A stretch of DNA of 64,000 nt from Eledone cirrhosa (lineage: Eukaryota), in NCBI GenBank assembly GCA_964016885.1, contig OZ024740.1, forward strand, positions 95,728,001 to 95,792,000, in the 5' to 3' direction. The notes under the pieces were generated by a model. It searched no databases, had not been told where the DNA came from, and saw only the letters and a list, made by a program, of their open reading frames with translations. The translations under genes and the position numbers were made by a program. Each line of letters starts with the position of its first letter. Position 1 is the first letter of the stretch. This document shows positions 1-63,092 of the stretch, piece after piece.

Positions 1-427
1 TACATAATTTACATAAATCTTTCGTTGCACATCTGCAACATCGTCAGTGGTGTTATATTCTTTGTTCCTCCTGTTGTGTTGTATGTCTACGCCATATTTT
101 TATTCAGTCTGTCTATATATTTATTTATTTATTTGCTTGTTTGTTTATCTTATTTTATTTTGTCTTCTTTGCGCATGCGTTTGCGTGTGTGTATAGTGTT
201 ATGTTTGCTCTTGACTAGTGTGTATAGTGTTGTGTCTGCTGGGTGACTAGTGTCTGTTTATGTGCTTGTTGTTATTGTGCTTGTGTATGTATTTATTTAT
301 CTTATTTTATTTTATTTTATTTACTTATTTATACTTCTCTTAGGTCAGTGTTGTTTGTTTGGGTGTTGTTGTTGTTCCACTCATTCTTTCTGTTTAGCTT
401 TGGTCTTCTAATTTCTATTTCACTGGC

Positions 428-718
428 CTATCTGATTTGCCTATCTGCTGGGTCATTCCTATGTTTAGATATTATTCTAATTTCTATGTTGTCTATGTTA
501 CCGTCATGTTGTTGTCTAGCATGTTCGTATAGTACTGACCCGTTTTTTCCTCCTTTTAGTTCCCCCCAGTGTTGGTCTATCCTTTCACCTATGCTACGAG
601 CTGTCTCACCTATGTATGTTGTTGTCATGTTTCTGCAATTACCCTCTGTACATCTTATGCTATAGACTACGTTTCTAGTTTTACAGTTTATCCGTGGGTT
701 CACCTTCATATGATACAT
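428..718 (-). pseudogene. GIY-YIG endonuclease domain of PLE
   Basis: NCKTRNVVYSIRC...YIGETARSIGERIDQH...SVLYEH motif. Confidence 0.9.
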
Positions 719-729
719 TTCCTATTGGT

Positions 730-1203
730 TCAGTGGGTTTTCTTAAAAGGGTAGGTTTTGCTGATCAGTGATTTTTTAGTGGTTCCTGGCTTTTCTACCA
801 CCTTTATTTTTAAGTGGGTCTTTCTCAGGGCCTTTCTACACTGGTTAGCTAATTTCCCTCCAGGGGTGGCGTCCACAAACATGACACTCTGATATCTCTG
901 GTTGTCGTACCATGATGTGGCCTTCCCTATGTTATGTCTAGACCTATCTAAGCTATTCCATGATATGCTCCTGTATAGTGGGCAAATTCCTTTCATGTCC
1001 AGTTCTATGAGGATCTTATACTTTTCCATGGCTCCTTCGTATACTCTGACTCTGTCTCTTTGGTTGTAGCCAGATAACTGCATGCGGTTGATGATGTGTT
1101 GGATGTGTCTTTCCATTTCTGTTGGGTCGCACATGCTGGACACATTCTTCATCACTCGTACCAAATCTGCGATCAGAATATTAAACTTAGCACTACTGGA
1201 CAT
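730..1203 (-). pseudogene. PLE RT thumb/linker fragment
   Basis: Lies between RT and endonuclease pieces; RMQLSGY and MFVDATPGGKLA motifs; homologous to 40796..41107. Confidence 0.8.
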
Positions 1204-1298
1204 TGCTGAGTTTTGAGTACCAGGTATTTGTAGGCCATGGGTTTAGCATAGTGTGAGTGGAGAATTTGGGCTCTCTCGTCTATAGTGTTAATCCAGAG

Positions 1299-2756
1299 TT
1301 ATGTGTCTAATACAGGTAGTCTATAGTTAGGGTGTTTGGAAGGGAAGTCGATAGTTACAGTTATACTCTGGTGTATGGAATTAGCTATCTGCTGGATGCT
1401 TTCCATCGTGCTACGTTCTAAATCAAACTTGTTAGTGCTCTCTAGTGGGGGTGTTCTTATAACTATATTGATATCGTCTACATAACGAGAGTACATGATG
1501 AGGTCTATGGAGCTTTCATTAAGGAGATCTTTAAGTCTCCTTTCCCACCAAACCATGAAAAGGTTGGCAACATCACCAGCTTTGCTGACGCTGATGGCTG
1601 CTCCCTCATTTTGGGTGTAGATTTTCTCATTGAACTTAAATATGTGGCCCTTTAGGGTAGTTTTGATACTAGCCGCTATTGCATGTGCGACCATTTTTCT
1701 TACCTGATCAGTGTTTTGGGGGGTCCGTATAGCTTTGGTCCACCCAATCCACCTTCCTATTGGAGTATTTCTTGCCATTGAGGTTATGGTGGGGGGTCTA
1801 CCTCTTATAGGTCTACAAGGGCAGAAACATCTAAGGTCATGGCTGTCTAGGTTGTCAGTGTCGTAGGTAAGTCTAAGTAGGAGGCCCAGTTCGTCTGTGT
1901 CGACGTCGCAGAACTCCACCTCACTCTCAATGATCATCTCCACACGTCTTTTCACAGCAAAATCAATGTTAATGGATAGGTACAGTGACACCACATCCAT
2001 GCTGCCTATTATGCAGTTGGATAGGCTCCTGTTTTTGTTGCACTCACTGATTCTGCTGAGGAGGTCCTCTGTACTTTCACATACATCTGGGGACATCTTC
2101 ATTATGGGGCGTATAAACATTGAGAGGAAGTAGGAGATCCTGTAGTTGCTAGCTATATTAGCTCCGCATACGGGTCTTGTTGGTGGTCCTGTTGTCGGGT
2201 CGTCGACTGTCTTGTGGTCTTTGTGGAGCCCATACAAGGGTGGTATGCCATTGTTAGACGCCTGGAAGTTGTTGGCAGTGCGTCTGCTTGGCTTTAGGAT
2301 GTCAGTCAACATCATCATGTGAGCGTTGAGGATTTTTTCTCTGCCATCGTGTGTTTGTTGTGCAACTTCGCTCGTGTTGGTGATGTGGGGTTGCATAGCC
2401 TTGATGTAGTTCGGCACGCTATCTATTGACATCCTACCATACTTATATGTGGGTAGACACACTACCTCACCATCCCTTGTGCGCTGCTTTAGGCTAACCA
2501 AGCCTTCTACAGGTTTTCTCCCAAGTTGTTGGGCCTCTGGTGTGCTCTGTCTCTTAGTATACCTGTCTACTACTTGTCTAATTTTATTTCTAGCTATGGT
2601 GAACTGTGCCTCCGTCTCGTCTACTATTTGCTGTGGTATGCAAACTCTTTTATTAAAGGGTAACCTCGTAGGATAGATATTACCCATCTTATATGTTTTG
2701 TCAGCTGGGTTGAAAAATAGTTTCTCTAAGGGGTTTGTCATTTTATCTATCGTCAT
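1299..2756 (-). pseudogene. PLE reverse transcriptase fragment (485 aa)
   Basis: LYGLHKDHK, TRPVCG, GSMDVVSLY, QNEG, SRYVDD and LPVLD motifs of PLE RT. Confidence 0.93.
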
Positions 2757-2764
2757 AGTAGTGT

Positions 2765-3190
2765 GTTGCTATTGTTGTTTCTATCATTAGCATTATTATT
2801 ATTGTTATGATTGCTAGATGTATTGTTGTTTACTTCACCGTTATTGTTGTTGTTGTTACTGTTATGTCTACCATTGTGGTTGTTACTATTATTATGTTTC
2901 TTGTTTTTGTTGATGTTGCTACATGTACTATTTCCATTATTACCACTGTGGTTATTGTTGTTGTTGTTCGTATTGTTACCGTTATTACTACTGTGGTCAC
3001 TGTTGCTGTGTCTGTGGTTAACGTTTCTATTATTATTATGTGGTTGTTGTTGTTCCGTCTATCGCTAGTAGTATTGCCATTATCACTATTTCTCACTGTC
3101 CTGCCATTGTTATGGTTATGGCTGTTATTTCTATACCCAGAGTTATTGTTTATATTAATACTACCGTTATTATTGTTGTTGTTGTTTACC
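2765..3190. repeat. Degenerate (TTG/TTA)n low-complexity tract inside the PLE coding region
   Basis: Trinucleotide runs that read Asn/Thr-rich on the element strand. Confidence 0.8.
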
Positions 3191-60721: not shown

Positions 60722-60830
60722 GCTGTTTTTATTCCCGTCCAAATGTTCACTATATGTATATATATATATATATATATATATATATATATATATATATATA
60801 TATATATATATATATATATATATATATATA

Positions 60831-61290
60831 GTTTTAATATAGAATAGCTTCTACATGACTAGAACTGTTTCATTTGTGAGAAATCACTAGGAAGCTGGCT
60901 GTCCAAGTAAAGGGTAGTATTTATCTCTAACCTTATCTGGTGGTACGAGAGGGCGGGGATTGGGATGGGTGTAGGTCATATGTTGAAGGATTTAAAATCT
61001 AATTCTTTAAAGCTATAATATTAACAAAGGCAGAAAGAATACTGTAAACAAGTTCAAAATTGGAATACCACTCCTTGTTTATCTCTTGAAGAAACAATGC
61101 GTGTCGGACAGGGGTCTACAGGATGGGTGGGAATCAATGGTTTAAAGAAAAGGCAAATTCTTTAGAGGGTAATTCTTTAAGGCTGAAATAAGGGTGTTCA
61201 AAGGCAGAAAAGATTCCATCATCTGATTCAACTGTTGGGGTTAACGCCCAATAGTGAAGTTTCTCTTAATATATATTCCAGGTGTCCACA
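60831..61290 (-). mobile_element. Probable PLE 3' end with decayed HHR at 60846..60896 (related fragment at 7106..7132)
   Basis: AGCTTC-CTAGTGA-TTTCTCACAAAT-GAAA-CAGTTCTAGTCATG-TA-GAAGCT; core departs from CTGATGA. Confidence 0.6.
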
Positions 61291-61584
61291 AACACATTCA
61301 CACACGCGCGCCCACTTACACACATACACACACTTACACGCGCACACAGATGTAGGCACACACCAAACAAACATACATAATGGTACATACACCCATACAT
61401 ACAAATACATACATACACATATACATATATATGTGTACATACATACGCATACATATACATATATATATACATATATATATATATATACATCATAAATCAT
61501 GTCTTTAGAATCATCAGATAACATATATACTATTTCTTCTTCTAATTAGCATAATTCACCATATAGTTTGTCTCCTGATAGTTT

Positions 61585-61661
61585 GTCTCCTGATGAATCC
61601 TAACTCAGGACATTCCTATTATTTGGATGTCTAAAAATACGGATGAAACCATGGTAGAGAT
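61585..61661 (+). ncRNA. Type I hammerhead ribozyme
   Basis: GTCTC-CTGATGA-ATCC..GACATTCC..GGATGTC..GGAT-GAAA-CCATGG-TA-GAGAT. Confidence 0.9.
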
Positions 61662-62241
61662 AAATTACGGTATGTACGCATTTCTTCTAAGTTTAATTTT
61701 ACACCTAATTGTGTATGTTTGATGATATATTTAGTCAGTTTCTACATGCTGTCGAAATATTGGATAAATACTCGATTGGGGCCACCGCGAAGAGGCTACG
61801 TTCGGTTATTTGTAGGAGATTTCTCCATAAGAGCCTTTCTTCTTATTGGTTGATCTAATTGATTTTTTATATGGTTAATTATGCTAATTAGAAGAAGAAA
61901 TAGTATATATTTTATCTGATGATTCGAAATACATGATTTATGATATATTGCTCTGATTTTTTAATTTACTAATTCTTCATAGAGCTTAAAAGTGACCAGT
62001 TGCAACATATATATATCTATAACTTTGTGTATATGTTAACCTTTATATTTAATAATCTCCCGATAGGTTGAGATTAAATTTGGCGATATGTGGCTGCGCT
62101 TTCTAGCAGCAGGCCTACCCGCCGTAAGCAACCAATCACATTATTTCTGGCTTGACCAAAGCCACATAGCGATTCTTAGCCATTTTTTAATCTATTTTTG
62201 GCGGGATCGGATTGAAAAACTAGATTTCTGATTTTGAGTTT

Positions 62242-62318
62242 GTCTCCTGATGAATCCAAACTCAGGACATTCCTATTATTTGGATGTCTAAAAATAGGGA
62301 TGAAACCATGGTAGAGAT
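62242..62318 (+). ncRNA. Type I hammerhead ribozyme (second tandem copy)
   Basis: Same core and stems as 61585..61661; the differences fall in unpaired parts of stem II. Confidence 0.9.
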
Positions 62319-63092
62319 ATAATTACGGAATGTACGCATTTCTTCTAAGTTTAATTGTACACCTAATTGTGTATGTTTGATGATATATTTAGTCAGTTTC
62401 TACATGCTGCGAAATGTTGGATAAATACTCGATTGGGGCGACCGAGAAGAGGCTACGTTCGGTTATTTGTCGGAGATTTCTCCATAAGAGCCTTCTTCTT
62501 ATAGGTTGATCTAATTGATTTTTATATGGTTAATTATGCTAATTAGAAGAATAAATAGTATGTATTTTATCTGATGATTCTAAAGACATGATTTATGATA
62601 TATTGCTCTGATTTTTTAATTTATTAATTCTTCATAGAGTTTAAAAGTGACCAGTTATACATATCTATAACTTATACATCTATAACTTTATGTATATGTT
62701 AACCTTTATATATATATATATATACATATATATATATATATATATATATATATATATAAACGTCCATAACTATATATATATATATATATATATATATATA
62801 TATATATATATATGTACATATACACATACACAGATATATACACATACATACACATTTACACTCATACATATACATATACATACATATACACATATATTCA
62901 TATATGTACATACATATACACATACATATACACATATATATACACACACATACACACACATATATATATATATATATATATATATATATATATATATATA
63001 TATATATATATATATACACATACATATACACGCACACACACACATATGTGTATACATATATATATACACATATAACTGAAGTCGTAGACTAA

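What the first reader, a model, noticed from the sequence alone, without database searches (positions are those of the whole stretch)
1..62711. About ten hammerhead families in 64 kb, several in ORF-less elements sharing one architecture: candidate non-autonomous ribozyme retroelement system
Seen: type I HHR motifs at ~4100, 6428/25573/41735, 7605/11171, 28286/46029/49684, 29393, 42132/42249, 45159, 52890/53324, 60138, 60846 and 61585/62242, mostly with unrelated stems. Seen: coding PLEs (4317..4413, 42471..42575, 45920..48745) and ORF-less elements (60695..60721, 61489..61565, 19866..20050) all carry an inverted piece of themselves at the 5' end and abut (TA)n. Established: PLE pLTRs carry minimal HHRs, and non-LTR retrozymes are HHR-bearing tandem repeats that yield circular RNAs. 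Inference: the ORF-less units are self-cleaving RNA parasites copied in trans by PLE RT/GIY-YIG. I cannot tell whether these families are already catalogued.
Basis: partly seen in the sequence, partly recalled or inferred. Interest (0 to 1): 0.8.

Follow-up and report, generated by a model that had tools for sequence, protein, structure and literature searches.

The report
Rearranged hammerhead ribozymes in animal transposons
This animal DNA is full of Penelope-like jumping-gene ends that carry hammerhead ribozyme motifs, five of them short gene-less repeats likely copied by the intact elements (a known kind), and one of these repeats carries a hammerhead with its three parts in a rearranged order, predicted to self-cleave and, in the papers searched, reported only from environmental sequence.

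Summary
The hammerheads are real (9 strict type I hits against 0.6 in shuffles; at least 14 families). About half are simply 3' ends of truncated coding Penelope-like elements (PLEs). Five families are ORF-less 430-660 bp tandem units with PLE anatomy (inverted 5' piece, two fixed 3' ends, (TA)n target); one forms a 67 kb array. That is the known non-LTR retrozyme / non-autonomous PLE kind. Three tight patterns count 8,314, 475 and 197 genomic copies (controls 0, 0, 2); stems I and III covary, and the main group has a predicted kink-turn in stem III. Type SGC was published only from metatranscriptomes. Old SGC copies lie downstream of decayed Naiad-type reverse transcriptases here (10 of 38 loci), and 16 passages of the published Naiad consensus file, read by eye, show SGC or CSG order, although that paper says Naiads lack canonical hammerheads. 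Cleavage, circular RNA and the mobilising partner are untested; SGC stem II is weak; the window's own SGC copies are decayed.

The parts
19857..21638 (.). Family D: ORF-less unit of about 550 bp (inverted arm 19857-20082, body 20085-20568 and 21480-21638) split by an unrelated insertion at about 20569-21479; family carries the type-SGC hammerhead
21490..21554 (+). Decayed type-SGC hammerhead: cleavage-site block (predicted cut after 21504), GAAA at 21521-21524, C block at 21548-21554 reading CTGATGC; stem I 21505-21511 with 21541-21547
   Evidence: family structure
19890..19975 (-). Second, more decayed SGC copy in the inverted arm
61485..62714 (+). Family A: 657 bp ORF-less unit, 1.7 copies plus inverted piece 61485-61565; intact type I hammerheads at 61590 and 62247 (predicted cuts after 61656 and 62313)
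59939..60721 (-). Family B: 559 bp ORF-less unit, 1.35 copies plus inverted piece; intact type I hammerhead at 60214 (predicted cut after 60143)
52628..53641 (+). Family C: 434 bp ORF-less unit, 2.3 copies; hammerheads at 52896 and 53330 with stem I damaged in these copies
28457..28997 (.). Family H: fold-back pair of an ORF-less unit of about 480 bp; hammerhead at 28695(-)
7554..11268 (.). Family E: inverted pair of the long 3' end of a young coding PLE; U3-A8 hammerheads at 7647(-) and 11175(+)
1..4418 (-). Coding PLE (RT 1302-2768, endonuclease piece 395-706), terminal repeats 1-209 and 4106-4314 with decayed hammerheads, inverted piece 4316-4418
5892..6624 (+). 5'-truncated coding PLE end (GIY-YIG piece, decayed hammerhead 6435); sister copies 25421-26506(-) and 40754-41945(+)
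45916..49846 (.). Coding PLE family X, 45916-48745(-) plus inverted copy 48753-49846(+); hammerheads 46073 and 49689; solo end at 28225-28443
42053..42420 (.). Family F: head-to-head pair of 3' ends (U3-A8 hammerheads 42161 and 42252); elsewhere lies about 1.4 kb behind a PLE RT-endonuclease frame
   Evidence: L433, L434
42654..45254 (+). 5'-truncated coding PLE (RT-endonuclease to 43774, long 3' region, hammerhead 45167)
60831..61490 (-). Family G: decayed hammerhead at 60890; probably a coding PLE's 3' end (not settled); a second piece at about 7098-7222
29108..29602 (.). Two further head-to-head pairs of truncated ends (hammerheads 29214/29251 and 29437/29507); the first not assigned to a coding or ORF-less family
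30330..30480 (-). Type I hammerhead 30443; relatives at 45385-45592 and 42471-42560; family not assigned

Best explanation
The window is a pile-up of Penelope-like element (PLE) insertions into (TA)n, in which about half the hammerhead families are 3' ends of truncated coding PLEs and five are ORF-less 430-660 bp units likely copied in trans by PLE enzymes, one of them with a hammerhead in the non-circular block order S-G-C that is predicted to self-cleave and is likely inherited from Naiad-type PLEs. Shown: unit structure, head-to-tail junctions, inverted 5' pieces, two fixed 3' ends 50-120 nt apart that end in TA-like letters, absence of an adjoining PLE reading frame in the loci sampled, copy counts, and covariation of the SGC stems. 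Inferred mechanism: each unit is a PLE terminal repeat joined to itself; it is transcribed as a multimer (or circle); a PLE protein nicks (TA)n and starts reverse transcription inside the RNA at one of two sites, which gives the two 3' ends (as shown in vitro for the anole PLE, PMC11167929); running on through further units gives partial tandems up to about 100 units; the second strand gives the inverted piece. The hammerhead would cut multimers to monomers only part of the time, because most insertions run through the cut site. In the SGC form stems I, II and III cross as pseudoknots; in the largest group a 3-nt bulge with tandem G.A pairs in stem III (kink-turn consensus, recalled) would bend the helix back so that it can connect directly to stem I.
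For: Units: tandem junction in 16 of 27 A loci, 33 of 54 B loci, 18 of 20 C loci, 5 of 15 D loci; a same-strand PLE protein piece within 1.2 kb upstream in 0, 1 (weak, 736 nt away), 1 (the window copy, which sits in another PLE's 3' region) and 0 of them; H: junction in 8 of 9 loci printed, upstream PLE piece in 0 of 20. Counts: A 365 exact patterns, B 1,240, controls 0. The A array on C4 spans about 67 kb, begins with an inverted truncated copy and ends at the family's usual 3' end. B 3' ends: 31 at unit position 437, 31 at 551-559, 4 other. SGC: 8,314, 475 and 197 pattern matches, reversed-pattern controls 0, 0, 2. Stem I was not fixed by the patterns, yet 92.7% of cells pair in 82 distinct copies against 71.0% (maximum 78.3%) with partners shuffled, with TA/CG, GC/TA and AT/GC swaps; on 31 aligned copies 95.3% of cells pair, 9 of 18 pairs change on both sides, slid controls 28-46%. 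A stem-agnostic SGC scan gave 55 distinct hits in 1.21 Mb of loci against 4-6 in shuffles (the loci were enriched for the family). Naiad link: 10 of 38 loci with a decayed Naiad-type RT end have an SGC-like stretch downstream on the same strand, 0 on the other strand, 1 upstream; 3 of 55 control loci have any hit; DKA motif in L404 and L405. Published Naiad consensus file, read by eye: SGC order in 10 passages, CSG in 6.
Against: No cleavage or expression was tested. SGC stem II is poor: the core-closing pair 10.1-11.1 is standard in only 36 of 82 copies and 10.3-11.3 in 1 of 82, whereas the published SGC ribozymes have a covarying stem II that is required for cleavage. Both window copies of D have core changes. 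The kink-turn pattern is absent from several of the smaller SGC groups and rests on a recalled consensus. No autonomous partner was found for A, B, C, D or H; the samples are 15-54 loci out of hundreds to thousands of copies, and the protein queries were 16 PLE pieces with no Naiad among them, so a rare or Naiad-type coding form could be missed. The Naiad-type RT matches listed are all short or broken frames (at most 298 aa open), so that family cannot be what moves the young SGC units. 36 of 62 family B 5' ends lie upstream of the cut site, and hammerhead mutants did not impair insertion in vitro for the anole PLE. Two Naiad consensus ends shown whole (Adux, 1_Skow) have no such motif by eye. 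Covariation among related copies overstates independent events.
Confidence: 0.75

Rival explanations
1. All hammerhead units are only 5'-truncated ends of coding PLEs; there is no non-autonomous system.
For: True for at least six families: E, 6428 group, 4100, X, F, 45159 (contiguous with its frame). Already described as common (PMC4209133 passages).
Against: A, B, C, D and H repeatedly join their 3' end straight to their own start with no frame between, in dispersed loci on many contigs and in a 67 kb array.
Confidence: 0.05
2. The SGC motif is a conserved but catalytically dead RNA fold, kept as a handle for the PLE protein or as a promoter/structure, not as a ribozyme.
For: Stem II weak; PLE hammerheads cleave poorly in vitro or only with protein, and cleavage is not needed for insertion; 8 of 9 frog retrozyme dimers did not cleave.
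Against: Every core base and a non-G at the cut site are kept across groups with unrelated stems, including GUC sites (H17: 53 A, 20 C, 9 U of 82); note that the search patterns demanded these core bases, so this shows that many such copies exist, not that all are constrained.
Confidence: 0.3
3. The units spread as satellite DNA by local duplication and recombination after a few insertions, not by repeated retrotransposition.
For: Long local arrays exist (C4 array of A; seven-unit array in L127); some loci are segmental duplicates (L172-L176, L188-L192).
Against: Dispersed insertions have varied 5' ends, inverted pieces and two fixed 3' ends in fresh (TA)n; even the long array has the insertion anatomy at both ends.
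Confidence: 0.08
4. The units replicate as circular RNAs made by hammerhead cleavage and ligation, and tandems come from rolling-circle reverse transcription (strict retrozyme model).
For: Tandems of 2-100 units from one insertion; intact cores in young A and B copies; circles shown for coral, mussel and axolotl retrozymes (PMC7229834). Mild excess of B 5' ends at the cut site: 12 in 26 nt against 14 in 88 neighbouring nt, p=0.007 for a window chosen after looking.
Against: Read-through multimeric transcripts explain the same tandems; only 1 of 62 ends lies exactly at the cut; the excess region is AT-rich and may be a microhomology hot spot.
Confidence: 0.4

Closest known systems
Non-LTR retrozymes (Cervera and de la Pena 2020, PMC7229834; Li et al. 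2026, bioRxiv 10.64898/2026.07.22.740005)
   Same: ORF-less tandem units with one type I hammerhead each, monomers to long arrays, proposed to be non-autonomous PLE derivatives.
   Different: Units here are 430-750 bp (150-450 bp in the 2020 paper, up to 972 in the preprint); the PLE-type inverted piece, two 3' ends and (TA)n target are mapped directly; circular RNA is not shown; family D has an SGC, not type I, hammerhead, which the type I descriptors of those papers would not find.
PLE pseudo-LTR minimal hammerheads (Cervera and de la Pena 2014, PMC4209133)
   Same: Type I cores with short palindromic stem III, U3-A8 variant, solo and opposite-strand pairs from truncated PLEs.
   Different: Nothing essential for the six coding families; A, B and 45167 have long stem II insertions.
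Type-SGC and type-CSG hammerheads (Eckert et al. 2023, PMC10085705)
   Same: Block order cut site - GAAA - CUGANGA, crossing stems I and III, full core, short stem I to stem II linker.
   Different: [quoted passage not shown]
Naiad PLEs (Craig et al. 2021, PMC8557442)
   Same: (TA)n target, tails, inverted and partial-tandem insertions; RT-last domain order and DKA motif in the remnants; SGC motif near the 3' end.
   Different: The paper reports no canonical hammerhead, only 'core' and 'half core' matches; non-autonomous Naiad derivatives are not mentioned in the passages read; the young SGC units share only the ribozyme layout with the remnants.
Anole Poseidon element PAc (Frangieh et al. 2024, PMC11167929)
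   Same: Two reverse-transcription start sites bounding an optional tail.
   Different: Tails here are about 50-120 nt rather than 30-40, and both ends coincide with TA-like letters in the unit, whereas PAc starts at a site not homologous to the target.

Membership tests
Non-LTR retrozyme | Non-coding tandem unit with a type I hammerhead in each unit | tested here: met
   A, B, C, H; not met in form by D, whose hammerhead is type SGC
Non-LTR retrozyme | Dispersed monomers, dimers and multimers | tested here: met
Non-LTR retrozyme | Self-cleavage of the transcript | not testable with these tools
   needs in vitro transcription
Non-LTR retrozyme | Monomer circular RNA in vivo | not testable with these tools
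   no RNA run was listed for family B
Non-autonomous PLE | PLE insertion anatomy: partial tandem, inverted 5'-truncated copy, optional tail, microsatellite target | tested here: met
Non-autonomous PLE | 3' end shared with an identified coding partner | tested here: inconclusive
   no partner in 27, 54, 20, 15 and 20 loci; sample small
Type-SGC hammerhead | Full core in block order S, G, C | tested here: met
   window copies decayed
Type-SGC hammerhead | Stems I and III with covariation | tested here: met
   further stem types
Type-SGC hammerhead | Stem II with covariation, and a helix between stems I and II | tested here: inconclusive
   10.1-11.1 standard in 36 of 82, 10.5-11.5 in 65 of 82, inner positions mostly purine mismatches; no I/II helix identified
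Type-SGC hammerhead | Cleavage at the predicted site, lost on core mutation | not testable with these tools
   bench test
Naiad PLE | RT at the C-terminus with DKA motif, no endonuclease behind it | tested here: met
   decayed remnants L404, L405, L392-L406; judged by motif against the published consensus text
Naiad PLE | N-terminal GIY-YIG and CxC linker | tested here: inconclusive
   motif search of 16 remnants found no N-terminal GIY-YIG; copies truncated and decayed; two homolog searches found nothing
Kink-turn | 3-nt bulge followed by tandem G.A / A.G pairs between two helices (recalled consensus) | tested here: inconclusive
   pattern and covarying outer helix in the main group (5 of 6 pairs change on both sides) and in the two Octopus Naiad consensus ends; absent from several small groups

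The most novel reading that the evidence does not exclude
Naiad retrotransposons, described as lacking hammerheads, carry working non-circularly permuted hammerheads (SGC in several phyla, CSG in nematodes) as their ribozyme; their non-autonomous offspring have spread thousands of SGC ribozymes through this animal genome, with a kink-turn in stem III that solves the topology and could let an L7Ae-family protein switch cleavage. These would be the first chromosomal hosts of a ribozyme topology so far known from environmental sequence.
Probability: 0.55. Interest if true: 0.85.

Novelty: new variant of a known kind. Interest (0 to 1): 0.7.

Why it matters
The rearranged hammerhead matters more. 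It would give type-SGC/CSG ribozymes a genomic home and a large natural mutational series; correct the statement that Naiads thrive without hammerheads, which is used to argue that PLE hammerheads are dispensable; show that type I/II/III descriptors miss thousands of ribozymes per genome; and make two open questions testable: what the hammerhead does in PLE mobility, and how a non-circular permutation arises and folds (SGC and CSG are circular permutations of each other and both occur in one PLE clade).

Tried and rejected
Rfam scan: only microRNA-like matches to microsatellites among the rows shown; no hammerhead. Pfam: only weak RVT_1 and GIY_YIG_2 matches below cut-off for 18 frames, so PLE identity rests on motifs and tblastn among copies. 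Sequencing runs: no RNA holder listed; contigs of 4 runs laid on family B gave nothing on ends or junctions. First reading of family D as a hammerhead that had lost GAAA and stem III was dropped once the upstream blocks were seen. HDV-like and type II/III readings of D did not fit by eye. Idea that hammerhead cleavage fixes the 5' end of insertions: only a mild post hoc excess; not claimed. Idea that family F has a fixed 5' end: it came from the query boundary; F runs on into a coding element. SGC pairs about 2.9 kb apart (L272, L273) held an unrelated PLE on the other strand, not a partner. A pattern taken from the published Octopus Naiad motif found 0 matches. Homolog searches with two Naiad-like pieces found nothing (weak evidence). 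A relaxed six-order scan of the window found no further convincing rearranged hammerhead. Earlier findings of the scan: none. Dfam and Repbase were not available. Lunse et al. 2017 was seen only in a reference list.

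
Full report
Setting. The window lies on contig C1 of a 3.0 Gb genome; the host was not determined. It is 35% G+C and full of (TA)n. Self-comparison and tblastn show several broken PLE-type frames (RT and GIY-YIG pieces) and many short direct and inverted repeats.

Observation. A strict type I descriptor finds 9 hammerheads against 0.6 in 60 shuffles. 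The remaining listed sites are decayed members of families with full cores elsewhere. Counting extra sites (28695, 29214/29251, 30443, family D; 59075 doubtful) gives at least 14 families. The inverted 5' piece is confirmed for five of the places named; 42471-42560 belongs to another short insertion.

Coding families. 6428/25573/41735 follow a GIY-YIG piece at a short fixed distance in the window and in 9 of 33 hits in fetched loci. 4100 is the terminal repeat of the element at 1-4418. 7605/11171 is the long 3' end of a young element (99% alike) whose RT-endonuclease frame adjoins it in 7 of 16 long loci (L206, L207, L209, L214, L215, L218 by open frame, L221 by DNA match). 28286/46029/49684 belongs to the element at 45916-48745. 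42132/42249 lies about 1.4 kb behind an RT-endonuclease frame in L433 and behind an endonuclease piece in L434, 2 of 4 long loci. 45159 is assigned by contiguity only. 60846 is probably of this kind but unsettled: 1 of 20 loci had a weak same-strand piece, and two had an endonuclease end on the other strand upstream. These are ordinary PLE hammerheads (PMC4209133, passages).

ORF-less units. A (657 bp): 365 exact patterns, junction in 16 of 27 loci, no upstream PLE piece, and an array of about 67 kb, roughly 100 units by span and period, whose fetched ends show an inverted truncated copy and the usual 3' end. B (559 bp): 1,240 patterns; I took the first 100 listed, which make 54 insertions; junction in 33, one weak distant protein hit. 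After dropping two diverged or complex loci and pieces under 85% identity or 60 nt, 3' ends split 31:31:4 between position 437, 551-559 and other. C (434 bp): 18 of 20 best-hit loci with junction. H (about 480 bp): junction in 8 of 9 printed, 0 of 20 with a PLE piece. D (about 550 bp): 5 of 15 with junction. The C, D and H samples are best hits, not random copies. This is the retrozyme / non-autonomous PLE kind: PMC7229834 (passages), bioRxiv 10.64898/2026.07.22.740005 (parts 1-3 of 5; its supplements are closed), non-autonomous Chlamys in PMC8557442 (passages). The two 3' ends match the two start sites of reverse transcription shown for the anole element (PMC11167929, parts 1-2 of 4). Cleavage does not usually set the 5' end: 36 of 62 B ends lie upstream of the cut; 12 fall within 352-377 against 14 in 88 neighbouring bases, a post hoc excess that I do not claim.

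The rearranged hammerhead. Family D has CUGAUGA with no GAAA behind it. The missing blocks lie in front: a cut-site block, then GAAA, then CUGAUGA. The bases after the cut site pair with those before CUGAUGA (stem I) and the bases before the cut site pair with those after GAA (stem III). This is type SGC of Eckert et al. [quoted passage not shown] Three patterns that fix the core and part of stem III but not stem I count 8,314, 475 and 197 copies, controls 0, 0 and 2. Stem I pairs in 92.7% of cells in 82 distinct copies against at most 78.3% with shuffled partners, with several double changes; an outer stem III also covaries. In the third, older set stem I reaches 6 or more pairs in 11 of 30 loci and is broken in the rest. 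Between inner and outer stem III the main group has a 3-nt bulge and tandem G.A pairs, the kink-turn consensus as I recall it; a sharp bend there would explain how the far end of stem III joins stem I with no linker, the point that Eckert et al. found hard to reconcile. Several smaller groups lack it. Stem II is the weak part (36 of 82 at the closing pair). The SGC units are ORF-less repeats of about 530-750 bp with the same insertion anatomy. The window's own copies are decayed.

Link to Naiads. Craig et al. say Naiads lack canonical hammerheads but flag 'core' and 'half core' cases. Reading their consensus file by eye around CUGANGA words, I saw SGC order with paired stems I and III in 10 passages (one search hits 28-30; one search hits 31, 37, 40, 41, 42; ctgagga 5, 6) and CSG order with all three stems in 6 (one search hits 34, 35; ctgagga 7, ctgacga 6-8), out of 54 Naiad entries. 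I saw 60 of 62 ctgatga, 20 of 23 ctgacga, 20 of 25 ctgagga and 20 of 43 ctgaaga places; words split by a line end may be missed; this was not scripted. Two entries shown whole lacked the motif. In this genome one old SGC copy lay 145 nt behind a Naiad-like RT end (L368); searching with that piece and a relative gave decayed RT remnants, and 10 of 38 further loci have an SGC-like stretch downstream on the same strand, none on the other strand, against 3 of 55 control loci. No N-terminal endonuclease was recovered, and no intact Naiad was seen, so the enzyme that moves the young SGC units is unknown.

Novelty. Six searches of the held library returned, on this point, only Eckert et al., Craig et al., the 2026 preprint and papers that appear only to cite them (one checked by passages, PMC13725137; the others seen as listings); none links SGC/CSG hammerheads to PLEs or animal genomes. 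Subscription journals, Dfam and Repbase were not searched. Earlier scan findings: none.

Verdict. Observation largely right; interpretation half right and of a known kind (alone about 0.3). The non-circularly permuted hammerheads in thousands of copies and in published Naiads raise the interest to 0.7. Structure is shown by covariation; catalysis, circles and partner are inferred.

Noticed in passing
Craig et al. 2021 File S5: Published Naiad consensus ends show SGC hammerheads (10 passages) and CSG hammerheads with all three stems (6 passages), unremarked in the paper's passages that I read.
   Followed up: partly
window 20569-21479: An unrelated insertion with a 37 bp minisatellite (20874-20998) splits the family D unit; it looks Helitron/Helentron-like (label recalled, not tested).
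   Followed up: no
G000:C4:175571377-175638627: A 67 kb array of family A with the ends of a single PLE-type insertion.
   Followed up: partly
window 8675-10135; L206-L221: Family E copies share a recurrent internal inversion with the same breakpoints in many loci, and 5 loci on C4 look like segmental duplicates.
   Followed up: no
window 6435, 25615, 41741: All three copies have lost hammerhead G12 by changes typical of CpG decay, while other loci keep it.
   Followed up: partly
families A, B, C, D, H, F, G, X: Both alternative 3' ends fall on TA-like letters inside the element; one end of B is often followed by (CT)n instead of (TA)n.
   Followed up: partly
window 22090-22276, 30881-31063, 54321-54405, 56125-56708, 35246-35385: A further short repeat family of about 185 bp in five or more copies, no hammerhead noted.
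   Followed up: no
window 23510-25033: A broken PLE RT-endonuclease frame (Neptune-like linker, label from recalled motifs) whose terminal repeat was not identified.
   Followed up: no
window 14852-17259 and 38287-38576: Two related broken frames on the minus strand (16846-17259 matches 38287-38576), family not identified.
   Followed up: no
window 59075: A single weak hammerhead-like motif with no relative in 1.7 Mb of fetched loci.
   Followed up: partly
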